Origin: Eledone cirrhosa
Taxonomy: Eukaryota
Length of the DNA stretch: 64,000 nucleotides
Assembly: GCA_964016885.1 (NCBI GenBank)
Contig: OZ024744.1
Coordinates: 70,804,001-70,868,000 of the forward strand
Reading direction: 5' to 3'
Shown: positions 1,278-63,742 of the stretch, in pieces
Layout of the letters: each line of letters starts with the position of its first letter
How positions within the stretch are numbered: position 1 is the first letter of the stretch
Position numbers and translations under genes: made by a program
The notes under the pieces: model-generated
The model's database searches: none
Told to the model about the DNA's origin: nothing
Seen by the model: only the letters and a program-made list of their open reading frames with translations

Positions 1278-1295
1278 ATATATATATATATATAA

Positions 1296-2117
1296 ATATA
1301 AGTATGTATACGTACATACATATATGTATACAGACGTATTTACCGAACATTTATTATAATGCTCGGTTTGTTTGTAAACAAACATCCCGAATTAAGCCGT
1401 ACAGTGTTTAGCAACCATTGTTGCCCTTTTGTTCAACACTGACAAAGGAACGATGTACTAGTTTCAAGCTTATTAGCTATCGTCAGCACCGTATACCTTC
1501 CTGCCAGATGATTGAACGTCTGAAAGTATATATTTTCCTTATGCATATTAACGGTTGAGCAGCATAATTTGTATATCGAGTGAGTTAATCGGCCGGGCGC
1601 ACCGAAAACGATAAATGGAAAAAGTGAAACGAAATTTCATTTCTCACTCTTAGTACGGCTGTTACTTAAATATAAGTATGTATACGTACATACATATATG
1701 TATACAGACGTACAGTAGTATGTATATATATATACATACATGCACACATATATATATGTACGTATGGATTCATCGAACATTTATTATAATGCTCGGTGTA
1801 TTTGTAAACAAACATCCCGAATTAAGCCGTACAGTGTCTAGCAACCATCGTTGCTCATTTGTTCAACACTGACAAAGGATGTAAACAAACAGCCCGAATT
1901 AATCGTACAGTGTTTAGCATGTTTGTTTACAAACAAACCGAGCATTATAATAAATGTTCGGTGAATCCATACGTATATATATATATGTGTGCATGTAAGT
2001 ATATATATATACATACTACTGTACGTCTGTATACATATATGAATGTATGTATACATACTTATATTTAAGTAACAGCCGTACTAAGAGTGAGAAATGAAAT
2101 TTCGTTTCATTTTTTCC

Positions 2118-2121
<4 letters not shown>
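1296..2121. mobile_element. HHR-bearing ~390-bp repeat (family B): 1.5 tandem units plus an inverted partial copy
   Basis: The unit restarts at ~1670 and is inverted at ~1920-2121. Other copies at 11040-11430, 15400-15920, 16545-17280 and 22670-22860. Confidence 0.85.
1450..1492 (-). ncRNA. Hammerhead ribozyme, family B
   Basis: Minus strand: acggtg-CTGACGA-tagctaataagctt-GAAA-ctag-TA-catcgt. Confidence 0.85.
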
Positions 2122-2211
<90 letters not shown>

Positions 2212-5329: not shown

Positions 5330-6320
5330 AGTGTTAGGAAATGCAAAAAATAAGGCAAAATTATGCATTTCAATATAAGTATACCATTAATTATAGGTTA
5401 ACTAAACTAAAGATAGTTAACATATTGATTTCTAAGGTGTAAATTAGTTAGGTTTATAATATTTGAAGCAGAATTTTGAAGTTAAATAGTAGTAGAGTAT
5501 TAATTATAGTATAACTAAAATAAAATTATTAACGTTATGGTATCAATATTAGGAAATGAGTTTAGTAATAGGGAAAAAACAAATAAAGTATTACATCGGT
5601 AGTAGAATATAAATTATAGGTTAACTAAATTAAAAATTATATATTAATTTCTATAGTATATGTTAATTAGGTATATAATAAATAAAACAGATATTGTATT
5701 TTATCAATAGCAGAATATAATTATATGCAAACAGAAATCAAAATTAATACATATACATATACATATATATACATATATATATATACACATATATATACAT
5801 ACATACACATACATATACATACATACATATACATATTTTTTCAAAAATTGCAAAGAATATATTAACTAGGTATACATCAAAAACACATCCCATTCTATGA
5901 TTACATGACACTCTGCAATCCGTCTGTATTAGGATACTAATTTTAAGCCAATTAAATTAAATTTTTAGGTTGACTAAATTTAAAACCAAATTATAAATAT
6001 ATTTCTAAAATGTATATTAATTAGGTCTATAATACTAAAAATTATTTCTCTGTCATTGAATACACGATATTTTGTTATATTTTATCTGTAAAGGAATTTT
6101 AATAAATGGTTAAATAAATTAAAATTAATCTATAAATTAAATTACTAAGTATATATTAGTAATATTTAAAGGTTTTTCACAATTTATGATTACACAATAT
6201 TTTATATTCTCATCTGTAGTAGAATTTTAATTAAATTAAATTTATAGGTTAACTAACATTTAAATTAAATTATATATTAATTTCTAAAATAATGTTATTA
6301 ATTAGGTTTATAATATTTAA
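5330..6320. repeat. Degenerate AT-rich tandem repeats in the PLE 3' UTR
   Basis: The motif ttataggttaactaaa...atttcta...attaggt.tataata recurs at ~5391, 5614, 5963 and 6242; the last copy overlaps the ORF stop. Confidence 0.65.
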
Positions 6321-7345
6321 ATGTTTTTTTTAGTTTATGATTACACGATATAATTAATTCCTGTCGTTTATTTAATAGGATATCCTTAGATTTCATTATT
6401 TCAAATAGTTCTTGGGAACATAATCTACATTCATTTCTATTATTTTGATAAGGGGTGGCTCTTTTGAGCACACTCCAGGTCAAATCATATTCTATATTCT
6501 TATTTTTATAACTATTGATTTTTTCTGCTAGAGATGTTGTATTAGCCAGTGCGGCATTTTTAAAACTATGCTTGTGGGTATTAAACCTTGTCTTAAAATT
6601 GTTAGAAGTAGCTCCTATATATGAGCAAATAGAATCTTTAGTTTTAACATTACATTTATAGACTATGTTGTTAACAAGACAATTCCCTTTTAATGGGCAG
6701 TTTGCTTTGTTTCTACAGTTACAACCTTTCGTTAATTCTGTATTTGAGGAGATATTATGGTTAGTTTGATGTATTGGTGGTATACTTATGGTTTTCTTAC
6801 ATTTATATGCATTATAGGCACTTATATTTTGTTTTATGTTATTTGTTGTTGAGTATGAGAATTTAACTGTAGACCTATTTAAGATTTGATGGTATTTGTG
6901 GTTTGGCGGGAAGTTTTTCTCTAGGATATAAAAAAATTTTTTAGCAATATTATCCTTAATTTGTAAATTAAATGGAGCATTATACCAAGTAACCCGTCTA
7001 TTACGGTTTCTATGTTGTTTATTATTTTTATTATTTTTATAGGTTGTATCGTGATGTTTACTAGGAGGATTAATGTTAATGATCTCACCACAACCATTTT
7101 TAGTTATATTTGTAGATTTAGGTGTTTTATCTTTTTTATTAGGAGTTTTATTATTAATATTTATTAGAGTTGTATGATGAGTAGTTTTTTGAGAGTTACT
7201 ATATTTTATATTAGAAGATTTGGTATTTTGGGGTATAGTGTGGGTGGCATTTAGGTGTGTACTTTTCATTTGGTGTTTGTTGGTAATATTAGGTTGTATG
7301 TTTTTAGTATTTTTAGTAGAAGGTATATATTCTAATCTATTTTTT
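6298..7345 (-). CDS. Penelope-like (Naiad-type) polyprotein C-terminal part: linker plus GIY-YIG endonuclease
   Basis: RRVTWYNAPF, FPPNHKYHQILNRSTVKFSYS, CNCRNKANCPLKGNC, IVYKC..SYIGAT..FKTRFNTH, CRLCSQE..SCNH. The frame stays open upstream of 7269 to ~7345 (NRLEYIP). Confidence 0.9.
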
Positions 7346-8438
7346 TGTGGCCACTTCTATCTAGAGCTTCGTTATAGAAGGTCGCATTTTTATCAAATAC
7401 ATCTTGGTTAGAAGAAAGGTTAGAAATTCTAAGTGATATATTATATGCAAGGTTTTTAAGGATAGATTTAGGGTGATTAGATTGTGAGTGTATGTAATGT
7501 AAGTTTTGGTTTGGTTTATGGTAAGGTTGGTAGATACCCGTAGCTAAATCTAAAGTTATATCTAGGAAATTTACTACTTTACTTGTTTTTTCAAAAGTAA
7601 TATGAAGATTATAATAGTCTTTAAGGAAAGTTCTAATATGTTTTTTGTTTTTTTCTATTTCTGAAAGGCTAAGGTTGTTAGAAAGAAGAAGACAGTCATC
7701 ACGATATAAACCACCTTTAAGGTGGGGAAAGGAGGCATTTATGTTGAAAAGGAGAAAGAGGCCCACAAGATCAGTAATTTGGGCGGAATCGCTTGAACCC
7801 ATAGTAATATCAAATAGATTACTATATGTGTTTCTGGTCCAGTATTCATTCTGAAATTCAATAAGTGTTAGTCTAGCATGTGTAATAATATTAATGTCAT
7901 CCAAAGTTAAGTTAGATCTATTTTTAGCAAATATCAATGCTTTGTTCAGGAGTATAGGTGATATAGAAGAATAGTAATTATCTATATCAAATTGTAGAAA
8001 TGAAGCAGAAGATTTACATTTAATATTTTTAAACCAGTTAATTACCTGGGAGGTGTTTTCCCAGAGTGGTAAAATAACGTGTTTTCTTATTTGTGGGATG
8101 ACTCTATCCAAAATTTTTTTGCTAATTATTCCAATATCTGATTTGGAGGGACATATAAGTCTTATAGAAGGATTTGAGTTAAAGTTTGATTTATGATCCT
8201 TCAGGTTGAAGTGTGGTCTTTTCAATGCCAAAGGTTCAGTTCTATCTTCAATGTTTAGTTTTTTTACTATGTTGTGTGTTTTGTTGTTGATGTTGGTGAG
8301 TGACGCATTATTGGATTTTTTATAATTTTTCCTGAGTTCTTTATATATGAACTCATTATAATGTTCAATATCCATGTGATACAAGTTACCAGTTTTGTCC
8401 GAGTGGACATGGATTTTTTTAGACTTTTTTAGGTCCAA
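7332..8438 (-). CDS. Penelope-like (Naiad-type) reverse transcriptase, 5'-truncated, frameshifted from the endonuclease part
   Basis: LKDHK..RLICPSKSDIG, QFDIDNYYSSI, FDITMGSSDSAQITDLVG, GLYRDD, NFLDITLDL, YHKPN..SNHP. Confidence 0.92.
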   Translation of the reverse strand: MDLKKSKKIHVHSDKTGNLYHMDIEHYNEFIYKELRKNYKKSNNASLTNINNKTHNIVKKLNIEDRTEPLALKRPHFNLKDHKSNFNSNPSIRLICPSKSDIGIISKKILDRVIPQIRKHVILPLWENTSQVINWFKNIKCKSSASFLQFDIDNYYSSISPILLNKALIFAKNRSNLTLDDINIITHARLTLIEFQNEYWTRNTYSNLFDITMGSSDSAQITDLVGLFLLFNINASFPHLKGGLYRDDCLLLSNNLSLSEIEKNKKHIRTFLKDYYNLHITFEKTSKVVNFLDITLDLATGIYQPYHKPNQNLHYIHSQSNHPKSILKNLAYNISLRISNLSSNQDVFDKNATFYNEALDRSGHKKID

Positions 8439-8559
8439 TAGGGTAGAATCATATATATATATATAATTTTCTTTTTATTTGCCACCAGGGCATCAAAAAG
8501 TGGGACAAGTACAATGGGGGGGAATTTACATAACAAGGCGTGCTCAATAAGGAGGAGGC

Positions 8560-11030: not shown

Positions 11031-11039
11031 ATATATATT

Positions 11040-11422
11040 TTCATTTTTTCCGTTTATCGTTTTGGGTGCGACCGCCCGACTAACTCACTCGATATGCAAA
11101 TTAGGCTGCGCAGCCGTTAATATGCATAGGGGAAAGTATATACTTTCAGACGTTCAATCATCTGGCAGGAAGGTATACGTTGCTGACGATAGCTAATAAG
11201 CTTGAAACTAGTACAGCGTTCCTTTGTCAGTGTTGAACAAATGAGCAACGATGGTTGCTAGACACTCTACGGCTTAATTCGGGATGTTTGTTTACAAATA
11301 CACCGAACATTATAATAAATGTTCAGTGAATCCATACGTACATATATGTATGTGTGCATGTATGTATATATATATACATACTACTGTACGTCTGTATACA
11401 TATATGTATGTACGTATACATA

Positions 11423-11430
<8 letters not shown>
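11040..11430 (+). mobile_element. Family B unit with HHR at 11177-11219
   Basis: acgttg-CTGACGA-tagctaataagctt-GAAA-ctag-TA-cagcgt; ends in (TA)n. Confidence 0.85.
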
Positions 11431-14811: not shown

Positions 14812-15399
<588 letters not shown>

Positions 15400-15400
<1 letters not shown>

Positions 15401-15917
15401 CATGTATGTATACAGACGTACAGAAGTATGTATATATATATACATACATGCACACACACATATATATATATGTACGTATGGATTCACCGAACATTTATTA
15501 TAATGCTCGGTGTGTTTGTAAACAAACATCCCGTATTAAGCCGTAGTGTCTAGCAACCATCGGTGCGCCCGGCCGATTAACTCACTCGATATGCAAATTA
15601 GGCTACTCAGCCGTTAATATGCATAAGGTAAGTATATACTTTCAGACGTTCAACAATCTGGCAGGAAGGTATACGTACTGACGATAGCTAATAAGCTTGA
15701 AACTAGTACAGCGTTCCTCTGTCAGTGTTGAACAAACGAGCAACGGTGGTTGCTAGACACTGTACGGCTTAATACGGAATTTTTGTTTACAAACACATCG
15801 AGCATTATACTAAATGTTCGGTGAATCCATACGTACATATATATATGTGTGCATGTATGTATATATATATACATACTACTGTACGTCTGTATACATATAT
15901 GCATGTACGTGTACATG

Positions 15918-15920
<3 letters not shown>
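15400..15920. mobile_element. Family B fold-back copy with HHR at 15673-15714 (+)
   Basis: Inverted arms at ~15400-15562 and ~15745-15905; CTGACGA-tagctaataagctt-GAAA-ctag-TA. Confidence 0.8.
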
Positions 15921-15955
<35 letters not shown>

Positions 15956-16486: not shown

Positions 16487-16544
16487 AAAATAGTCAGAAC
16501 CCCGACGGCAGAGCTCAAGCTGTTTCGACAGTTACGGCAGTTAC

Positions 16545-17280
16545 TTAAATGTAAGTATGTATGTATACGTACATACATATATGTTTACAGACGTACAGTA
16601 GTATGTATATATATACATGTATATATATACATACATGCACACATATATATATATGCACGTATCGGTTTACCGAACATTTATTATAATGCTCGGTTTGTTT
16701 GTAAATGTTCGGTAAACCGATACGTGCATATATATATGTGTGCATGTATGTATATATATACATGTATATATATATATACATACTACTGTACGTCTGTACA
16801 CATATATGTATGTACGTATACATACTTACATTTAAGTAACAGCCGTACTAAGAGTGAGAAATGAAATTTCGTTTCATTCTATTCCATTTATCGTTTTCGG
16901 TGCGCCCGGCCGACTAACTCACTCGATATGCAAATTAGGCTGCTCAGCAGTTAATATGCATAAGGAAAGTATATACTTTCAGACGTTCAACCATCTGGCA
17001 GGAAGGTATACGATGCTGACGATAGCTAATAAGCTTGAAACCAGTATATCGTTCCTGTGCCAGTGTTGAACAAAAAGGTGACGTGGTTGCCTAAACACTG
17101 TACGGCGTAATTCGGGCTGTTTGTTTGTTTACAAACAAACCTAACATTATAATAAATGTTCGGTAAACCGATACGTGCATATATATATATATATGTGTGC
17201 ATGTATGTATATATATACATACTACTGTACGTCTGTATACATATATGTATGTACGTATACATACATACTTACATTTATAT
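16545..17280. mobile_element. Family B fold-back plus tandem copy with HHR at 17010-17052 (+)
   Basis: Palindrome at 16540-16840 centred near 16690, followed by a full unit. acgatg-CTGACGA-tagctaataagctt-GAAA-ccag-TA-tatcgt. Confidence 0.8.
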
Positions 17281-17484
17281 ATATATATATTTTGAATTGT
17301 TTTCCCATATCTTACGTTAAATATTTTCCATCTTGTTATAGTCACTTATATATTATGAAATACTGTTGGCTTCTTGCTCACATTAATTTCTCTATTTTCA
17401 TTTATATATACACATATATATATATAGACATACAAATACTTATATACATACACACACACGCACATGTGTGTATATATATATATA

Positions 17485-18399
17485 CGAGGTGTGTTAGAAA
17501 AGTTCCAGGACTGATGTCACAAAAGATTTATTTCAAACCCAAACTTCACACTAAGAATTTTCTCCTTCAAAGTAATCCCCCTGGAGTATGTAACTGTAAT
17601 CTTAGCTCTCTGCAGCGATCAAACTTTTTTCTTCATAATTTTATATACATGTCCTCTGTTTCAGGTCGTCAAGCAATGAGCACAGAGCAACGAACAAACT
17701 TGAAGTTTCTGGTACGGTTGGGGAAAACTCCGTCAGAAACACTGGGATTGCTGCAGCAAGTGTATGGAGATGAGACGATGTCACGCTCACGTGTTTTTGA
17801 GTGGTGCAAGAGGTTTAAAGAAGGACGCGAGGACGTGGAAGATGACCCCAGCAGTGGAAGGCCCTCAACAACCAGGACTGAGGTCAACGTTGAGAGCGTC
17901 AGGCAGATGGTGCGTAGCGATCCTCGGCTGACTGTTCGACTGATGGCAAATGAGTTGGGCATGAATCGGGACAGCGTCTGGAAGATTCTCACTGAAGATT
18001 TGGACATGCGGAAAGTCTCCGCGAAGATGGTGCCAAAACTGCTGAGCGATGACCAGAAGGTCGACGCATTCAAGTGTGCCAGGACATCCTCGAGGGTCTT
18101 GAAACCGAACCAGATTTGCTAGGGACAGTCATCACCGGTGATGAGTCATGGATCTTCGAGTACTACCCGGAGGGGACCCGTTTTGAAGAGGTGGACGACA
18201 TCAAAAAGGCCGTGACGACGGAACTGCGGAGGATCCCGGAAGAATCCTTCCAGGAGTGCATGCAAGCGTGGTAGAAAAGGATGGAAAAGTGCATTAGACT
18301 CCAGGGGGATTACTTTGAAGGAGAAAACTTTAGTGTGAAGTTTGGGTTTGAAATAAATCTTTTGTGACATCAGTCCTGGAACTTTTCTAACCCACTTCG
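17485..18399 (+). mobile_element. Mariner DNA transposon, internally deleted, with ~70-100-bp TIRs, inserted in (TA)n
   Basis: Left TIR cgaggtgtgttagaaaagttccaggactgatgtcacaaaag; right TIR cttttgtgacatcagtcctggaacttttctaacccacttcg; TA flanks. Confidence 0.92.
17676..18320 (+). pseudogene. Mariner transposase remnant (HTH domain, first catalytic D, C-terminus)
   Basis: MSTEQRTNLKFLVRLGKTPSET..VFEWCKRFKEGREDVEDDPSSGRP..KMVPKLL, a frameshift, then ITGDESWIFEY joined directly to GTRFEEVDDIKKAV. The catalytic middle is deleted. Confidence 0.88.
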
Positions 18400-22517: not shown

Positions 22518-22837
22518 CTAAGTTGTTTGTTTTATAAATATTGACATATCCAGGAAGAAGATCTTAACGGTTCCAGTTTTTCCTGGATAGTTTCGAATCA
22601 GTTATAAACATATAATATTTGTTGAATTATCAACAAATTAAATATCTCTTTTGCTTATATATATATAAACCGAACATTATAATAAATGTTCGGTAAACCC
22701 ATACATACATATATATATATATATATGTATGCATGTATGTATATATATATACATACTACTGTGCGTTTGTACACATATATGTATGTACGTATACATACTT
22801 ATATTTAGGTATCAGCCGTACTAAGAGTGAGAAATGA

Positions 22838-23192
22838 AATTTCGTTTCATTCTTTTCCATTTATATATGTATTTAATTATGTCTCATATAAAATAATACA
22901 ACTGGCTATCCGCAAAATACGTATAGTTAGCACTCCAAACGTATAATTGGGATTATACTAACGTATATCGTAATGTTTGTTGAGTGAGACGGAAGTCGGT
23001 CATTAACAGAGAAAGTTTTAAGCAATACTCCGACCGACTTCCGTCTCACTCAACAAACATTACGATATACGTTAGTATAATCCCAATTATACGTTTGGAG
23101 TGCTAACTATACGTATTTTGCGGATAGCCAGTTGTATTATTTTATATGAGACATAATTAAATACATATATAAATGGAAAAGAATGAAACAAA

Positions 23193-23196
<4 letters not shown>
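22838..23196. repeat. Near-perfect 163-bp-arm palindrome with a 32-bp spacer, adjoining family B sequence
   Basis: 22838-23000 is the reverse complement of 23033-23196; ends at (TA)n. Confidence 0.92.
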
Positions 23197-23254
<58 letters not shown>

Positions 23255-32647: not shown

Positions 32648-34153
32648 GTTGCTGTCTCGCTTGTGTGTGTGTGTGCGTGTGTTGCTGCATCGTTTGTTAA
32701 CTTAAACCAACCACCTCATTTCGCTTCTCTCTGATCGGTTGTTTAATTGTGGCCCTAGGCGTTTGATCCAAAGTGCTTCCTTGATAGCCTGCAGGGACCT
32801 GTCGTCCACTACAAGTCCGCCCTCCCTAACAGTGCCAAAAGAGGATACATCACGAACGAGTTCGCGCGAATCATGAACAGATGCAGCGATCCCGCAAGTG
32901 GTGTCACTCATACCAAGCGATTCCTCGAGGTGCTGGAGACGAACGGGTACCCTGCCTCGCTCACAGACAGAGTAGGAGACACCAGACACAAGAGACAGAG
33001 AGGCACCCAAGGCAAGTGCTTCCTTAAAATTCCACACCTGGGCGAGAATACCACCAACGCTATCCACAAGGCTATACGGAGGAAGGGCCTCGACATCCAC
33101 CTGGCCCACTCGGGCCCCTCCCTGCGAAGATGCCTCTCCAGGAAACCCGGGAAATCAACTGACGCGTGCTCCCTCAGAGACTGCCCGATACGCTATGCGA
33201 ACTGTTGCCTACGCACATACGTCGTGTATAAGATAGAATGTAACAAGTGCGACCAATACTATATAGGTAGCACAATCCGGCCGTTGCACATCCGGATCAA
33301 GGAACATACTAAAACCAGGGCCTCGTCTTTCCGGAAACACATAGCCAAATGCGGAAACAAAGACGGAAGGCCCATTGTCACAATTCTAGCGACAGAAAGA
33401 AACGTCGGCACGTTACGTATCAAGGAAGCACTTTGGATCAAACGCCTAGGACCACAATTAAACAACCGATCAGAGAGAAGCGAAATGAGGTGGTTGGTTT
33501 AAGTTAACAAACGATGCAGCAATACACGCACACACACACACACACACAAGCGAGACAGCAACACACGCACACACACACACAGTAGCATTCCACCATACGA
33601 ACATACTACACTGCCAATACAGAGGAACAAGGCAACAACACACGCACACACACACACACTCAAGCGAGACAACAACACACGCACACACACACACACACAC
33701 ACAGTAACATTCACCAAACAGGCAGAGAATGGACTGACAGCTAGCGCCACCCCACTCCCACAATTGAAAGAACTACTTCGGCCGCTGACCTCTGCCTGAA
33801 CGACCCCATTTCACGCGCACGCGCGCTCTGCTGAATACCTCAGATATTCAAAACAATGAACAGCGGAGGACATGTTTCGCACCTTTCCGGCAGACAACCT
33901 CCCCCCTCTGGAAAAAACCCCAGTTGATGGATGTGAATCCGAAATATATAGGGACAATTAAATCTCTCCCAAGGTAACTCTCTCTCGTGTTGTTATTGTT
34001 ATTTTTATCCTTTACGCTCTTTCCTTCATTCCTCTACACGTCTTATACACGCCACGCATCTCAACGTATACCCACTCACATCTCTCTCTCCACCACCGGA
34101 TCTTGTTACCCGGAGATTTAACCATCTGCATTGTCGAGGCTTCCAAACGACTT

Positions 34154-39044: not shown

Positions 39045-41000
39045 TACATGAATCAAAGTTCTGTTTAAACCATTTATTCGCTTACAATTGTTTCTTCCAA
39101 ACCGAGGTTTGGAGTCTTCGGAGCAATTTTTCAATGATTTTTTACATACTTGACCTCCTTTCCAACACAAGAGACATATAGAACCATATGTATATATTGA
39201 TGCACAGTGGGTTGACATCCATTATAATATTATAGCATTACAATTTATATACAAAGATTAAAGTCATATTAAAGGACAAAATTAAAGTTAAAATACAACA
39301 TTGGTAGTTTACGAAGATAAAGCAACCTTAGTATTACCATGGACAAAAACACTAAAAAACACTAAAAACACAAAAACACTAAAAACGTTAACTTCCTAGA
39401 CGCCACCCTCTACCTAGACTAGACATATATACACTTTCCACAAACCTAATGAAAAACTCATTTACGTAGATACCAAGTCTAACCACCCTAGATCAATATT
39501 AAACTCTATCTCTAAGGGAGTATCCAATAGAATCTGTAAACATATTTAGCAAAAACTCGCAATATTATAATCAGGCGTTAGCTAGATCAGGCCATAATAT
39601 AGAGATCGAGTTCCTACCTACAAAAACACATAGCTACAACATTATTTCGCACAACATGTCCATGAGGAAATTTAGTAATAGGAATAGCAACCACAGACAC
39701 ACTAATAAGGAGGATGCCAACAAAAGTAACCCACACCACAGAAATTACCATAGTACCATAAAAAGAAACAACTCACCAGACATAAAAAACAAAAATAGAA
39801 GAAGAAATAATACATTTTTCAACCCTCCTTTCAATCTAAACGTCTCTACCAACCTACCTAGGGCTTTCCTCTCACTACTAGATAAAAACTTCCCACCTGG
39901 CCAGAAGTACCATAGCCTTTTAAACAAAAACACCATTAAAATCTCATACTCTACTACGCCTAACATAGCATACCACATAGCTAGTAGCAATAAAACAAAA
40001 ATTAATTCTTACTTCCAACAAACTAAATCACAACAGACGATAAACCTTCAAAATAACATTATATCAACTAACCCTAATAACAATAGAAATAGTAATAGCA
40101 CTAGTGTAAGCAATAACGCTGGGAACGACAACCGCCAGCACCATAATCCTATAGCTACCATCCAGACTTCTACACAACATAATAACCGGCAGACTAACAC
40201 CCAGAATAATTGTAACTGTAGATCAAATAGAACCTGCCCTTTAGATTAAAAATGCTTAATCAAGGATATCATATACTCATGCACCGTCACAACTAGCAAC
40301 TCTTCTGAAACCTATATAGGCTCTACTTCGAACTGCTTCAAAACCAGATACAATTCGCACCTCCACTCTTTCAAAAAACACAGTCTAGCCAACTCCACTT
40401 CACTATCTCGCTACATACACTATATAAAAACTAAAAATAAATCATATACACTTAAATGGGAAGTGATAGGTAACGCGACATCGTACAAACCACCTAATGA
40501 ATTTTGTAACCTCTGTCTACTAGAGACCCATACTATTATCTTCTCAAACCATAACCTCCTTCGTAAACTACCAATGTTGTATTTTAACTTTAATTTTGTC
40601 CTTTAATATGACTTTAATCTTTGTATGTAAATTGCCATGCTAAAATATTATAATGGATGTCAACCCACTGTGCATCAATATTATATATGTTTCTGTATGT
40701 CTCTTGTGTTGGAAAGGAGGTCAAGTATGTAAAAAAATCATTGAAAAATTGCTCCGAAGACTCCAAACCTCGGTTTTGAAGAAAGAATTGTAAGCGAATA
40801 AATGGTTTAAACACAACTTTGATTCATGTAATTTCTATATAACTGCTCTGTAGAACAACTGATGTTATTACATTGAACTATTTATCTTACTGGTAATAAG
40901 GTAGTAATAAATTACTGTCTTTCACTATTTAGGGTTTAAAGTATATATAACTATAAAAGGTTTTAGTATATACATAACCATAAATAGTATCCTTAATACT
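39040..41000 (+). mobile_element. 5'-truncated Naiad PLE with inverted family A termini; HHRs at 39076-39128 (-) and 40747-40799 (+)
   Basis: Coding remnant at ~39380-40560 (NFLDATL, SNHP, FFNPPFN, CNCRSNRTCPL, TYIGST). 39040-39316 is the reverse complement of 40560-40835. Confidence 0.88.
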
Positions 41001-42900: not shown

Positions 42901-43079
42901 GGCAGTATCGGTAGAGGGTCGGACGCCATGCTTTCCAGCATAGTTACCTCCCTTTACGATCTGAGTTCAAATCCCGCCGAGGTTGACTTTGCCTTTCATC
43001 CTTACGGGGTCGATAAAATAAAGTACCAGTAATGCACTGGGTAATTGCTGGCCTTGTGCCTAAAGTAGAAACAATTATT
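42901..43079 (+). mobile_element. tRNA-derived SINE inserted in the PLE ORF
   Basis: Family match; flanked by attatta. Confidence 0.85.
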
Positions 43080-43502
43080 AGTATTTAAACTATTATTGTT
43101 ATTCCCATTAACTAATGTATTGTTATTATTATTATTATTATTATTGCTAATTATATGTTGGTTCAAATTAAGATTTTTACTATTCATTTTTGCTATATTT
43201 TGAGCAATATTCATAGTTGTTGAATAAGAAAGTTTAACTGTATGTCTATTGAAAATAGAGTAATATTTATGTGACCTAGGGAAGCATATATCCAAAGCTT
43301 TAAAAAAGAAGTGTGCTACAGGTGTTTTAATAGTTAAAGATGCAGGCGGAGCATACCAAATTATAGATCGAGTTCTTATTTTTTTCCCCGATTTATTCCT
43401 CAAGTTGTTGATTTTATATTCATTTTTATTATGATTAGTGTGATTATAATTAATATTATTTTCACTATTTTTTCTATATACTCAATATTATTGTTATATC
43501 CA

Positions 43503-43710
43503 AGGCGGTGGATTGTTATATAGGGCGGTGGATTGGCAGTATCGGTAGAGAGTCGGACATCATGCTTTGAAGCATAGAGTTACGTCCCTTTATGATCTGA
43601 GTTCGTAATCCCGCCGAGGTTAACTTTGCCTTTCATCCTTACGGGGTCGATAAAATAAAGTCCCAGTAATGTACTGGGTAATTGCTGGCCTTGTGCCTAA
43701 AATAGAAACA
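43503..43710 (+). mobile_element. tRNA-derived SINE with a 16-bp TSD
   Basis: attattgttatatcca at 43487-43502 and 43711-43726. Confidence 0.88.
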
Positions 43711-45094
43711 ATTATTGTTATATCCAGCTTTATGTAACGATTCATTATAATATACAGCCTTACTATTAAATATGGATCTATTAGCAGATAGCCTGGATAT
43801 TCGTTGTTGTACACTGTTGACAATTGCATTCTTAACACTTTTAGGATGATTAGAATAAAAACTAACATAATTTAAATTCTCATTGAGTTTATGGAAGGGA
43901 TAATAAAGGCCTGAGTTCAAATTAAGAGTCACGTCTAAAAAATTAACTATTTTATTATTATTTTCTACTTCTAATTTCTAAACTGAAACTATATAAATAA
44001 GTAAATGCAGAAGTAAATATAACCTTCAGTAAATTAATGAAATTAACTTTTGTGAGTAAATGTAACTGCAGTTTAATCCTAGAAATTAAATGAAAATTAA
44101 AGAATAGTGAAGATTTAAAAAAGAGAATATCATAATTAAATAATTTGAGTAATATATGATCTAAATATATTATATGTATTGATGGTGACTTATGTATGGT
44201 ATTAGATTTTAATACATATGTAATAATTATTCAAATACGCTTTAATGATTAATTCTTTTAAAGTTGTAACAAAATATTTATAGAATATCTTATCGTAAAA
44301 TTAAAAATAATAATCTATAATGAGTTAAATAAAATAAAATAAATTTTTAATTAAACTATATATGTGATTGCTATAGAAAATAATCTATACTGATTAATTT
44401 TGATATAATATATAAGTATAATTAGCTAATGCATAATCAAATACTAAAGATATTCAATTGTTTAGTTGAATTGATTGGATGTCCTATTTGATCCAGTATT
44501 TGAAAACAACGGTTTTTTCTCTATCTTTCTTTTCTTTATTTTCTTTACCCCTTCTGTTCCCTTTACTTTCCTTACACCTTCCCTCTTTTGTCGTTATTCC
44601 TCTTTTCTTTTTATATATTTCTTTTACTCATTCATCCTTTTATGTTTTGTTTTTATTCATTTATCTATTTATGTATATATTTACGTATGTATTTATTTAT
44701 TTTTTCTTGCCTTTCCTCCTATTTACACCCTCTCTCATATCTCTAATTTGCTCTACGTCCTTTTCTTCTTTAAGTTTATCATATTATTTGTGGTATACAA
44801 ACATTGAGATTTGACGAAATAAATCACTGCTAATACTGGAATTGTATAATCAAGACCGTAGCGGTATGTCATACATCAAATCATATATTTTATCTGATGA
44901 AGACGTACTGAAAAAACAACACAGGACTTTGAAATATATATAATAAAGCATATATTTTGATTATGTGAATATCCTTCATTTATTAATATTTTGAATAATA
45001 TTAAAAACTCAAAGAAAACTTTTTGTTGAGTGCTTTTAATCAATAGTAAAATTGTATTCATTGAGTAATCAACGAACTATATTAATCTTTGGTC

Positions 45095-59589: not shown

Positions 59590-61300
59590 CGCAGGTTTCA
59601 CATCCATTACATATGTCATGATGTATTTGTGTTGAGTATCTGTTATAGTAATGGCTTGTAATGTAAAGTAACTTAGTGTTATTTAGTCCGTACCGTATAC
59701 TACATTTGTATAGCTGGGAGAATTTTCTACTGTTTAATACCCGGAAGTGGGAATGGAAGTAAGGGGAGCTAATGCGTAAGGGGAGGTAAGTAGCTCATTA
59801 TAATAATAATTAAACTCATTGTTCTAAGGGACTTTATATAGTGTTATAATTGAGGGCCTAATATAGAAACTATATATTTATATTTAATTTAATTTAATTT
59901 AAACCCAGTCTACTCTCTCCTAATACATTAAGGTATCATTATAAAGTTGCCTATCAAGTATTATAAAGTGCCATAATTGAGTTTCCCATACAAATTGTTA
60001 TATATTTATATTAATTTAATCCTGGATACAGTCTACCCTTCCAAAATATATCAGAGGTTTTGCTAGATTGCTGTCTACCTAGTATATGGTAAGCTATGTA
60101 ATACGGTATATCTCTAGAGTAAATAAACACATCCCTTATATACAATGTTATTAATGTTAATCCATACATTTAATTATAGATGTATACATAATTCATTGTT
60201 CCATATTGCATTTAAGTTAGATAAATCCCTTATGTTACTACATTAATCCTATATATACAATGATATTAATTTTTACATTTAATTGAAAATGTATATATAA
60301 ATCATTGTTACGTTTATTATTTAAAGTTTATCCAAATTATATTTCCATTACTATATAATTATAAGTAATCTAATTTTACTATATTAAGGGTATAGAGTTA
60401 TAGGTCGGCTGAATTGTGTAGAGGAAAGCGTGGATCAAAGAGTGTGGTGCAGTGGTGCAATGCAAGCCCTAAAAGTGAAGTGCTAATGGAGGTGCTGAGT
60501 TCAAAACTGAAATTGCTATATACTAGGTTTAAAGCTTTGGAAAGAGTGTCGGAAGCGGTTCTGGCACGATGCAAACACTTCCGATTTTTTATTAAGGAGG
60601 TTAAGGTTCGAAAATATTATAGTATGGGTCTCTAGAAGACAGATGTTACAAAATTTATTAGGGGTTTATACGATGCTGCCCTACCTACTACTTCCCATTG
60701 AAGTATATATGATCTATTCCTAGTTTTCAGATAGTGTATGCAGCTAGATAGTGAAGTGGAGTTGGCTAGATTGTGCTCCCTGAAAGAGTGAAGGTGTGAG
60801 TTGTATCTCATCTTGAAGCAGTTCAAAGTGGAGCCTATATAGGTTTTAGAAGAGTTGATAGTGTTGACCGTGCATGAGTAAATGATGTCCATGATTAAGC
60901 AGTTGTTACCTAAAGGGCAGGTTCTATTAGATCTACAGTTACATTTATTTTGGGTTATATCTCGTCGGTTATTATGCTGTGTAGAAGTCTGGTTGCTAGG
61001 GTTAGTATTAGGGCTATGATGGTTGCCGGTCACAATGTTATTGATTTCAATATTGTTACTACTATTATTACTATTGCTATTAGGGTTAGTAGTTATTATG
61101 TTGTTTCGAAAGTTTCCTTCTTGTTGTGTTTTAATTTGATGGAGATAAGCATTAATTCTTCTTTTATTACTACTAGCTATATGGTATGCTATGTTAGGTG
61201 TGGTAAAGTAGGAGATTTTAATGGTGTTTTTATTTAAAAGTCTATGCTACTTGTGGCCCGACGGGAAGGTTCTTTCTAGGATTGAGAAGAAACTTTCTAG
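59590..61300 (-). mobile_element. Inverted 3' half of a Naiad PLE (GIY-YIG at 60632-61033 plus 3' UTR)
   Basis: CNCRSNRTCPLGNNC..IIYSC..TYIGST. 60280-60725 mirrors 63295-63742. Confidence 0.85.
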
Positions 61301-63742
61301 GCTTGGAAGAAACAATTATCAGCAATTAAATGTTCTAACATAGCTTTGATTCTTGTGTATTCTATATTACTGCTCTGTATAACAAATGATGTTCTTACAT
61401 TGAGCTATTTATCTTACTGGTAATAAGGTAGTAATAAATGACTGACCTTACCTGTTTATAGTTGTATATAGTATATACCTAACTATAAATAGTATCCTTA
61501 ATATTATTAACTGCTCCTCTCTGTTGAGCTAACATACATTAAATTACCAGTATGCTGATCAAGGACTACCTCCCTATGTCTGCTAAGAACATTCCAATAC
61601 CATCCAGAGATACATACGAAAAATTACTGATCAATAGTGTCAACTCCTTTATCAATAGAGTGAGATGGAGGACATTCCATTATGATAAAAACAGATCTAA
61701 CAAAACCGATGATACTAACAAGTTTGAATCCTTCGGCTTTAAAACTTTTAAAAGCCCTCCTCACAACACACTATTAAACTCGTTTGAAAACGATCTAATA
61801 AAACTAGTTAAGAGCATTAAATACACAAACCATCGTAATAGAAACAACACCTTCTTAAGCAAACTTAATTCCACCATTAAAGGATTCAATACAAATAATA
61901 AAATCATTGTACATGCAGCTAAAACTAATAATATATATAGCCTAGATTATGATACATATAGAAAATGTATATATAAAGAGCTACACAGGCGCTATAAGAA
62001 GACTACTACTAAAAACCTAGAAGATATTAATTCGGATAGTGTCTAAACTGGGACTTCAGAGGCATACTCAGCCATACACCCTAACCCCCAAGATTCTCTC
62101 TGAAGGACCATAAGGAAGATTTCATTAGTAACCCTTCGATTAGACTAATCTGCCCTTCCAAATCTGACATTGGCATTATCAGTAAGAAAATTTTAGATAA
62201 AATCATCCCGCAGATTAAGCACAAAGTATTCCTTAAACAGTGTGGAAATACGGGTGAAGTTATTGAATGGTTTAGAGAAATTAAAGAGATCAAAAATAAA
62301 AAATTCATTCAGTTTAATATCAATTCTTACTACACCTCTATTTCACCCATCCTATTAAATAAGGCACTCATTATGGCCATGAACAACAATGACCTGACTA
62401 GATCCCAAATTGATGTCATACTTGCGGCCCGTAAAATCATAATTACATTTGAGGATCAGTTATGGACCCGCAAGGATACGCATAGCAACTTTGACATAAC
62501 TATGGGGTCTAGTGACTCGGCGCAGGTCACTGATTTGGTGGGCCTATATCTACTAAATGAAATTCATAAGAACCTACCATATCTCAACGGTGGTTTATAC
62601 CACGATGATGCACTACTCCTTATAGACTATAAAAAATGTAATATAGAGAGAACAAGCAAACTGTTACATAAAACCTTCAACAACTTCAACTTAAGTATCA
62701 CCATAGACAAACACACTAAAAATGTTAACTTCCTTGATGCTACCCTTTACCTAGACTCTAAAGTATATACGCCTTACCATAAACCTAACGAAAAACTGAT
62801 TTATGTAGACACCAAGTCGAACCACCCTAGATCCATTTAAAACTCTATCACTAAAGGTATTTCTAACAGAATCTCTAATCTATCTTATAAAGAAACCATA
62901 TTTAGCAATAATTCGCAGTACTACAATCAGGCATTAGCTAAATCAGGCCATAGTAATGGAATTGAGTTCCTACCTACAAAATCACATAGTTCCAACATTA
63001 TTTCTCACAATATGGCTATGAGGAATAGCGGTAGTAAGAATAATAACCACCCCTACTCTAACACGAAGGGGAATAACAAGCCCAACTCGCACCATAGTAG
63101 ACACCAAAATATTATAAACAGAAATACCTCAATAGATATAAAAAAGAAAAATAGAAGAACTAATACTTTTTTCACCCCACCCCTTTCAATCTAAACGTCT
63201 CTACCAACTTACCTAGGGCCTTCTTCTCAATCCTAGAAAGAAACTTCCCGTCGGGCGACAAGTACCATAGGCTTTTAAATAAAAACACAATTAACACTAG
63301 GAATAGATCATATACACTTCAATGGGAAGTAGTAGGTAGGGCATCATCGTATAAACCACCTAATAAATTTTGTAACATCTGTCTTCTAGAGACCCATACT
63401 ATAATATTTTCGAACCTTAACCTCCTTAATAAAAAATCGGAAGTGCTTGCATCGTGCCAGAACCGCTTCCGACACTCTTTCCAAAGCTTTAAACCTAGTA
63501 TATAGCAATGTCAGTTTTGAACTCAGCACCTCCATTAGCACTTCACTTTTAGGGCTTGCAATGCACCACTGCACCACACTCTTTGACCCACCCTTTCCTC
63601 TACACAATTCAGCCGACCTATAACTCTATACCCTTAATATAGTAAAATTAGATTACTTATAATTATATAGTAATGGAAATATAATTTGGATAAACTTTAA
63701 ATAATAAACGTAACAATGATTTATATATACATTTTCAATTAA
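61300..63742 (+). mobile_element. Near-full-length decayed Naiad PLE: family A pLTR, ORF start, RT, internally deleted endonuclease
   Basis: SAKNIPIPS..FINRVRWR..FGFKT..FENDL (61552-62046); FDITMGSSDSAQVTDLVG, GLYHDD, NFLDATL, YHKPN (62373-62840); stops and frameshifts. Confidence 0.9.

What the first reader, a model, noticed from the sequence alone, without database searches (positions are those of the whole stretch)
1296..2121. Family B: ~390-bp HHR repeat in tandem and fold-back forms, with no linked ORF in the window
Five loci (1296, 11040, 15400, 16545, 22670) carry a well-conserved unit, four of them with a clean minimal HHR (palindromic ctag stem III). The unit occurs head-to-tail with different start points, as expected for cDNA made from a circular or multimeric RNA. 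Its size matches animal retrozyme monomers. This is the best retrozyme candidate here.
Basis: partly seen in the sequence, partly recalled or inferred. Interest (0 to 1): 0.75.

Follow-up and report, generated by a model that had tools for sequence, protein, structure and literature searches.

The report
Hammerhead retrozyme with Penelope insertion footprint
This is one copy of a roughly 440-base non-coding repeat with a predicted self-cutting RNA motif that sits at more than 10,000 places in an animal genome, often as back-to-back arms ending at two fixed points about 60 bases apart, the footprint expected if a Penelope-type jumping-gene enzyme copies a likely circular RNA into TA repeats.

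Summary
The repeat is real, but several details are off. The unit is 419-493 nt (median 442), not ~390. Only 2 of the 5 window loci have a clean hammerhead with ctag. Copies are not freely permuted: 3' ends are fixed and 5' ends vary. The genome holds 10,089 exact hammerhead cores. Of 90 insertions anchored at the long 3' end, 51 carry an inverted arm; 35 of these stop about 60 nt short of it and none reaches it. That is the 'tail' of Penelope-like elements (PLEs). Copying runs through the cleavage site (2 stops at 52 sites, 1.6 expected), so the template is continuous there. No PLE ORF uses this repeat as its end in the 348 loci held; the 22860-23030 extension is another repeat family. A ~60%-identical sister family keeps the hammerhead by compensatory changes and forms arrays of up to 18 identical units across both arms, which favours a circular template. 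Cleavage, RNA circles and the partner enzyme are not shown. Verdict: a new member of the animal non-LTR retrozymes, likely PLE-mobilised. This scan already reported what appear to be this family and its sister on other DNA (e1-8665316, e1-8803865).

The parts
1293..1879 (-). Inverted arm of the insertion (hammerhead sense on the - strand), about 1.4 units; its 3' end is at the short site (CATACTTATATTTA|TATA, 1293); carries a deletion of about 60 nt in the TA-rich stem
1450..1492 (-). Minimal type I hammerhead: core CTGACGA at 1486-1480, U.U at the base of stem II, palindromic ACTAGT stem III, predicted cut after GUA at 1456
   Evidence: covariation
1880..1919 (-). 40-nt extra piece at the fold-back centre (a repeat of an upstream part of the inverted arm; likely a template jump)
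1920..2123 (+). Main arm, 5'-truncated (unit positions 228-434), ending at the long site TTCCATTTA|TATATA
2068..2123 (+). PLE-type 'tail': about 56 nt present at this end and absent from the 1293 end
11039..11429 (+). 0.9-unit copy with an intact hammerhead (11183, predicted cut after 11213), ending at the short site in (TA)n
15396..15566 (-). Inverted arm of the third locus, ending in non-family sequence
15560..15924 (+). Arm ending at the short site; hammerhead at 15678 with stem I broken next to the core
16533..16702 (-). Inverted arm of the fourth locus; runs 13-19 nt past the short site and then meets another repeat
16702..17277 (+). 1.3-unit head-to-tail arm ending at the short site; hammerhead at 17016 with ccag (non-palindromic stem III)
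22667..22864 (+). 5'-truncated 190-nt 3' fragment without a hammerhead, ending at the long site
22866..23197 (.). Not part of family B: an unrelated high-copy repeat (X), followed by an inverted duplication (23032-23197) of X plus the last 30 nt of B

Best explanation
Family B is a non-coding 420-445-nt hammerhead repeat with more than 10,000 copies, two fixed 3' ends and frequent back-to-back arms; it is likely copied into (TA)n by a Penelope-like RT/endonuclease supplied in trans, likely from a circular RNA monomer. Steps: (1) inferred: tandem copies are transcribed into multimers. (2) Predicted: the hammerhead cuts at GUA, probably as a dimer, because stem III is a single closing pair plus the palindrome ACUAGU. 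(3) Inferred from other retrozymes: a host ligase closes the monomers into circles. (4) Footprint shown, enzyme inferred: a PLE protein cuts both strands of a TA repeat and starts reverse transcription at two fixed internal sites about 230 and 290 nt downstream of the cleavage site, one site per DNA end. (5) Shown: each copy runs through the cleavage site and stops at a scattered point, which gives 5'-truncated, tandem and fold-back insertions with a tail of about 60 nt at one end only. My odds: about 0.9 for a PLE-mobilised non-autonomous element, about 0.6 that the template is a circle rather than an uncut linear multimer. The partner family is unknown.
For: FIXED ENDS: 1,806 exact terminal junctions into TATATA against 1,938 internal ones. 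TAIL: 51 of 90 3'-anchored insertions have an inverted arm; 35 of the 51 end at the short site, 0 at the long site, 16 elsewhere. In sister family B', 64 of 90 are inverted, and 52 of 56 complete inverted arms end 68-75 nt short. ONE EVENT: the two arms belong to the same subfamily in 31 of 34 classifiable pairs, 52% expected by chance; 41 of 51 inverted arms end within 40 nt of a TA run, against 17% of background windows. In a purified PLE, two adjacent internal RT start sites define the tail, both strands are cut and extended, and hammerhead cleavage is not needed for insertion (PMC11167929, parts 1-2 of 4 read). An ORF-bearing PLE of this genome shows the same pattern, with arms ending about 40 nt apart (one fold-back locus, L272; ORF link in L299). 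READ-THROUGH: 1 stop at 47 first sites and 1 at 5 second sites, 1.6 expected in all; 27 of 90 arms exceed one unit. In B', 3 stops at 281 sites, 3.4 expected. SELECTION ON THE RIBOZYME: 6 of 13 hammerhead pairs change on both sides across B and B', 95.9% of cells pair against 25-50% for slid controls, and the cut triplets are GUA, GUU and GUC. Circular folds expose the hammerhead at the junction, z -7.1 for B and -10.9 for B'. CIRCLE: in B', 18 of 18 units are identical across both arms of L201 and 6 of 6 in L204, while arrays differ from each other by a median of 15 substitutions. Array length does not rise with within-array divergence (rho -0.11, p 0.40, n 58). 29 private variants are fixed in all copies of an insertion.
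Against: No RNA, cleavage or ligation was observed. The strongest evidence for a circle comes from the younger sister family B'. In B, units within an array usually differ by 8-22 substitutions; only L045 (2 of 2 identical) and L210 (ABAB) look freshly copied. Higher-order repeats (ABAB, GGA x3, periods of 4 and 8 in L288) show that some arrays came from oligomeric templates or from DNA-level duplication. Some variants shared between arms in L293 fit no single template. Within-insertion divergence was below the distance to the nearest other insertion in only 37 of 58 B' insertions. Assembly polishing could make young arrays look more uniform than they are. In vitro, a PLE uses uncut RNA (PMC11167929). 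The covariation rests on about four lineages, and two of the five shuffle measures are not significant (168/500 and 325/500). The 3'-anchored samples were chosen on the long end, come from contig C1 only, and cover 90 of 1,806 (B) and 90 of 1,970 (B') ends. No autonomous PLE shares sequence with B; a single junction to a PLE ORF (L098, 1 of 90) could be a template switch or a later deletion.
Confidence: 0.75

Rival explanations
1. Same PLE-mobilised non-coding element, but the template is an uncut linear multimer. Long uniform arrays are regenerated by DNA-level duplication, and the hammerhead acts at another step.
For: Hammerhead cleavage is dispensable and uncut RNA is the main substrate for a PLE in vitro (PMC11167929). 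Nested periods of 4 and 8 units in L288 and a period of 4 in L300. 8 of 9 Xenopus dimers did not cleave in vitro (bioRxiv 10.64898/2026.07.22.740005). Read-through alone cannot tell a circle from a multimer.
Against: Arrays of 7-20 units with no differences across both arms, each array with its own haplotype. No rise of length with age. Private variants are fixed in up to 15 copies over both arms. Copying from linear multimers can only shorten arrays.
Confidence: 0.3
2. The copies are 5'-truncated ends (solo pLTRs) of an autonomous PLE whose ORF was not sampled.
For: All the insertion hallmarks are those of PLEs. PLE ORF fragments are common in the flanks. Only 348 loci (about 1.4 Mb) of a 3.0-Gb genome were read. 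24 of 57 Xenopus retrozyme families match known elements, mostly PLE ends.
Against: 27 of 90 arms run past one unit into the next unit rather than into an ORF. None of 90 B or 90 B' anchored insertions continues upstream into a PLE ORF in sense. The 41 GIY-YIG-motif ORFs in 15 clusters gave no profile hit to B/B' at their ends. B and B' have diverged by about 40% over the whole unit with no ORF in either.
Confidence: 0.07
3. A DNA-level satellite or MITE-like repeat; the fold-backs come from hairpin repair in TA repeats and the hammerhead is incidental.
For: The unit is rich in palindromes and TA, and one DNA-type inverted duplication exists at 22835-23197.
Against: Asymmetric fixed ends, scattered 5' truncation, dispersal over many contigs, and compensatory changes that keep the hammerhead.
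Confidence: 0.03

Closest known systems
Metazoan non-LTR retrozymes of coral, mussel and axolotl (Cervera and de la Pena 2020, PMC7229834; parts 2-4 of 6 read)
   Same: Non-coding tandem units of a few hundred nt, low GC (37.7%), type I hammerhead, thousands of copies. Stem III is like axolotl HHR_Amex1 (one pair plus a palindromic tetraloop), and the U.U at the base of stem II is like HHR_Amex2; both cleave weakly as monomers and well as dimers. That paper proposes PLEs as the mobiliser and a circRNA as the RT template.
   Different: The unit is at the upper size edge (420-445 nt; B' 465-469). The parts I read describe no inverted arms, fixed RT start sites, tail or (TA)n targeting for retrozymes. 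Those RNAs were shown as circles; this one has not been.
Vertebrate non-LTR retrozymes as PLE derivatives (Li, Clavereau and Pollet 2026, bioRxiv 10.64898/2026.07.22.740005; parts 1-3 of 5 read, supplements closed)
   Same: [quoted passage not shown]
   Different: Their link rests on pLTR homology and co-occurrence, and they ascribe tandems to local amplification. Here no pLTR homologue was found; the link is the insertion footprint, and the arrays look set at insertion.
EN+ Penelope-like elements: Poseidon_Ac (PMC11167929, parts 1-2 of 4 read) and PLE structure, including non-autonomous Chlamys such as MRC1 (PMC8557442, 12 passages read)
   Same: 5' truncation, partial tandems, an inverted 5' copy, a tail at one end only, AT or microsatellite targets, and two internal RT start sites downstream of a hammerhead.
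   Different: No RT or GIY-YIG ORF. The tail is 57-63 nt (B' 68-75 nt) against the 30-40 bp described. The start sites are followed directly by (TA)n, and short T/A matches at them may help priming (inference).

Membership tests
Non-LTR retrozyme | Type I hammerhead in the unit | tested here: met
Non-LTR retrozyme | Tandem units of about 150-450 bp, at least two consecutive with a complete hammerhead | tested here: met
   47 units, median 442 nt; arrays of 3-5 exact cores and up to 7 internal junctions
Non-LTR retrozyme | No coding capacity, no LTR-type organisation, GC below 50% | tested here: met
   Longest open stretch about 80 codons across the unit junction; the arrays consist of the unit alone; GC 37.7%. 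PBS and PPT were not searched separately.
Non-LTR retrozyme | Target-site duplications longer than 4 bp when present | tested here: inconclusive
   The ends lie in (TA)n, which hides duplications
Non-LTR retrozyme | Self-cleavage of the transcript | not testable with these tools
   Only fold and covariation evidence
Non-LTR retrozyme | Accumulates as linear and circular monomer RNA | not testable with these tools
   Needs raw RNA reads or northern blots
Autonomous EN+ PLE | ORF with RT and GIY-YIG between pLTRs | tested here: not met
PLE-mobilised non-autonomous element | Fixed 3' end and variable 5' truncation | tested here: met
PLE-mobilised non-autonomous element | Inverted 5' copy with a tail at one end only | tested here: met
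   51 of 90 inverted; 35 of 51 end at the short site, 0 at the long site
PLE-mobilised non-autonomous element | AT-rich or microsatellite target | tested here: met
   41 of 51 unselected inverted-arm ends and 20 of 39 simple 5' ends lie beside TA runs; background 17%
PLE-mobilised non-autonomous element | Sequence shared with the end of an autonomous partner | tested here: inconclusive
   None found in 348 loci; most of the genome was not read

The most novel reading that the evidence does not exclude
Families B and B' are an old, protein-less lineage of RNA circles that borrow PLE enzymes without sharing detectable sequence with them. A PLE dimer primes both ends of one TA break on the circle at two fixed sites and rolls round it, writing RNA-stage variants (some A-to-G edits) into every unit. 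The arrays are then a genomic record of rolling-circle reverse transcription of a viroid-like RNA in an animal germ line.
Probability: 0.45. Interest if true: 0.7.

Novelty: new member of a known kind. Interest (0 to 1): 0.48.

Why it matters
The papers read here propose, but do not show, that animal retrozymes are copied from circular RNA by PLE enzymes. This family carries the PLE two-start-site tail on a unit with no ORF and no detectable pLTR relative, and it gives exact predicted priming sites and a cleavage site. The question can therefore be tested directly: put a purified PLE protein with a circular or an uncut B RNA and a (TA)n target, and see whether it starts at the two sites and rolls. 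Within this scan the result repeats earlier reports, so the added value is the quantification and the B/B' comparison.

Tried and rejected
RFAM: the 150 listed of 357 matches were mostly microsatellite-driven microRNA hits, with no hammerhead family among them; 207 were not shown, so this says nothing either way. REPEAT FINDER: swamped by TA/CA repeats. SEQUENCING RUNS: no RNA holder listed. Laying four contig sets showed the TA end at 16891 but cannot show RNA ends or circles; 6 contigs of organism B matched in part. PFAM: 1 of 5 PLE-like fragments hit GIY-YIG, so the other PLE assignments rest on motifs and BLAST. PARTNER SEARCH: the family of 32759-33502 (20 of 150 matches read) has unrelated 3' ends; the ORF-bearing family of L299/L272 has a similar minimal hammerhead but no profile hit; B beside PLE ORFs in L008, L031 and L038 is separated by TA runs. 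CLUSTERING OF 5' ENDS AT THE CLEAVAGE SITE: rejected. RNA-EDITING SIGNATURE IN B: not seen (A>G 26 vs T>C 25 among private singletons; 0 vs 1 among 10 fixed variants). In B' it is only suggestive: 10 of 29 fixed variants against 25 of 258 singletons (p 0.0008), but p 0.15 without L256, and the strand test gives p 0.12. MONOMER ENERGY: invalid (2-nt loop), not used. COATS ET AL. 1994 (newt snRNA-type promoter): not held; seen only as cited in PMC2220036. LITERATURE: six searches (listings only) showed no paper describing this family or a PLE tail on a retrozyme; most subscription papers and repeat databases (Repbase, Dfam) could not be searched.

Full report
OBSERVATION. The window lies in a 3.0-Gb animal genome (G000); that it is a cephalopod is my guess from recall and was not tested. 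Self-comparison finds the five loci. A motif scan finds minimal type I hammerheads at 1486(-), 11183(+) and 17016(+). A fourth core at 15678 has lost the stem I pair next to the core, and 17016 has ccag instead of ctag. So 2 of 5 loci are both clean and palindromic. The unit measures 419-493 nt, median 442, in 47 complete units, with three subfamilies of 421, 434 and 443 nt. The exact 31-nt core occurs 10,089 times, the reversed control 0 times.

THE ENDS ARE FIXED. Read in hammerhead sense, most of the first 30 loci ended at the same motif, running into TATATA. Genome-wide the motif is terminal 1,806 times and internal 1,938 times. I took the first 90 of the 1,806 terminal sites, all on contig C1, with 1.5-3.5 kb upstream. 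Their 5' ends are scattered, and 27 of 90 arms exceed one unit. 47 arms reach the first cleavage site and 1 stops within 5 nt of it; 5 reach a second site and 1 stops there; 1.6 stops are expected in all. The template is therefore not a cleaved linear monomer copied to its end.

TWO ARMS AND A TAIL. 51 of the 90 insertions have an inverted copy joined at the 5' end. 35 of these arms end at a second site about 60 nt upstream of the main end, none at the main end, and 16 elsewhere. The arms match in subfamily in 31 of 34 classifiable pairs (52% expected), and 41 of 51 inverted arms end beside TA runs, against 17% background. The finding itself is such an insertion: 1293-1879(-) ends at the short site and 1920-2123(+) at the long site. 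5' truncation, partial tandems, an inverted 5' copy and a tail at one end are described for PLEs (PMC8557442, passages). A purified PLE cuts and extends both strands and starts reverse transcription at two internal sites that bound the tail (PMC11167929). An ORF-bearing PLE family here shows arms ending about 40 nt apart in one fold-back locus.

NO LINKED ORF. PLE ORF fragments are frequent in the window and in the flanks, but those I read beside B are separated from it by TA runs. The exception is L098 (1 of 90), where a B arm joins a PLE ORF through a 4-nt overlap; this may be a template switch or a later deletion. The 22860-23030 extension is its own family with 2,451 candidates; none of the 6 other copies read has B joined upstream of it. 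A profile of B and B' found no ORF-linked relative in the 318 loci and window then held, although these contain 41 GIY-YIG-motif ORFs in 15 clusters. A genome-wide pattern for divergent ACTAGT hammerheads gave 71 hits (control 3); the 30 read were an older B subfamily, B' variants, or unrelated motifs without an adjoining ORF. The partner is not identified.

A SISTER FAMILY. L159 holds a 467-nt unit about 60% identical to B along its whole length. One branch alone has up to 5,365 hammerhead matches and the family has 1,970 exact ends. On 15 aligned units, the consensus fold recovers the hammerhead, and 26 of 95 pairs have compensatory changes. For the 13 hammerhead pairs, 6 change on both sides and 95.9% of cells pair, against 25-50% for slid controls; two of the five shuffle measures are not significant, and only about four lineages are involved. 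The cut triplets are GUA, GUU and GUC. Folded as circles, both monomers expose the hammerhead at the junction, z -7.1 and -10.9. ACUAGU self-pairs at -6.8 kcal/mol and ACCAGU at -0.2, which fits the dimer-dependent cleavage described for axolotl hammerheads (PMC7229834). In 90 B' insertions, 64 are inverted, 52 of 56 complete inverted arms end at the short site, arms reach at least 14.5 units, and 3 of 281 cleavage sites are stops, 3.4 expected.

CIRCLE OR MULTIMER. For a circle: L201 has 18 of 18 identical units over both arms and L204 6 of 6, while 14 arrays differ from each other by a median of 15 substitutions. Length does not grow with divergence, and 29 private variants are fixed in all copies of an insertion. 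Against: within-insertion divergence is below the distance to the nearest other insertion in only 37 of 58 cases; higher-order periods of 2, 3, 4 and 8 units occur; and polishing could make arrays uniform. In B itself, units within an array mostly differ by 8-22 substitutions, with L045 identical and L210 ABAB. An A-to-G excess is absent in B and only suggestive in B'. I put the circle at about 0.6.

COMPARISON AND VERDICT. The family meets the sequence-level definition of a metazoan non-LTR retrozyme (PMC7229834; bioRxiv 10.64898/2026.07.22.740005; its supplements were closed and may list related families) and is not an autonomous PLE. Cleavage and circular RNA could not be tested. Those papers propose PLE mobilisation; the parts I read do not show the tail footprint on a retrozyme, and six searches listed no paper on this family. 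Earlier notes of this scan, read after these results, report the same footprint for what appear to be this family and its sister; they are not independent support. New member of a known kind; interest 0.48.

Noticed in passing
L159:299-1195; L201; L205/L206: Young sister family B' (465-469 nt, two hammerhead variants) forming fold-back arrays of up to about 24 units; no B' copy was found in the window.
   Followed up: yes
L256; L201 (unit positions 337, 341, 342 after the cut); L205 (position 111): A-to-G changes in hammerhead sense: five private ones in L256, three clustered in all units of L201, and a G,G,A three-unit pattern in one arm of L205. Possible RNA editing of the template; not significant overall.
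   Followed up: partly
B unit positions 37-44 (window near 16928); also L158, L114, L112, L134: ATGCAAAT lies 88-100 nt upstream of the core in 98 of 115 B and 46 of 48 B'2 hammerheads counted (overlapping loci), and 70-115 nt upstream of hammerhead-like motifs in other repeats. It may be an snRNA-type promoter element, as cited for newt satellite 2, or just part of a conserved hairpin; in L134 it belongs to an adjacent B copy.
   Followed up: partly
L098: A B arm joined without TA to a 611-aa PLE ORF through a 4-nt overlap; its relatives are at window 39503-40606 and 60632-63505. A lead for the partner enzyme.
   Followed up: partly
window 22509, 31808, 41127/44894, 47874/48011, 54044, 58024: Other hammerhead families in the window, several as inverted pairs.
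   Followed up: no
window 6298-8474(-), 32759-33502(+), 39503-40606(+), 43002-43977(-), 60632-63505: PLE RT and GIY-YIG fragments of several families. The family of 32759 has a degenerate core (TTGATGGA...GAAA) downstream of its ORF and 18,489 search candidates.
   Followed up: partly
L113:108-1658(-): Six tandem 310-nt units with another hammerhead (ACGCGT stem III).
   Followed up: no
window 22835-23197: A near-perfect inverted duplication that spans the junction of two unrelated repeats (the last 30 nt of B plus repeat X).
   Followed up: partly
L319, L326, L333, L343: Older B subfamily with CTGATGA, a changed stem II base and a GUU cut site.
   Followed up: partly
window 17145-18122(+): Mariner-type transposase fragment (HTH_48, HTH_32) just downstream of the fourth B locus.
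   Followed up: no
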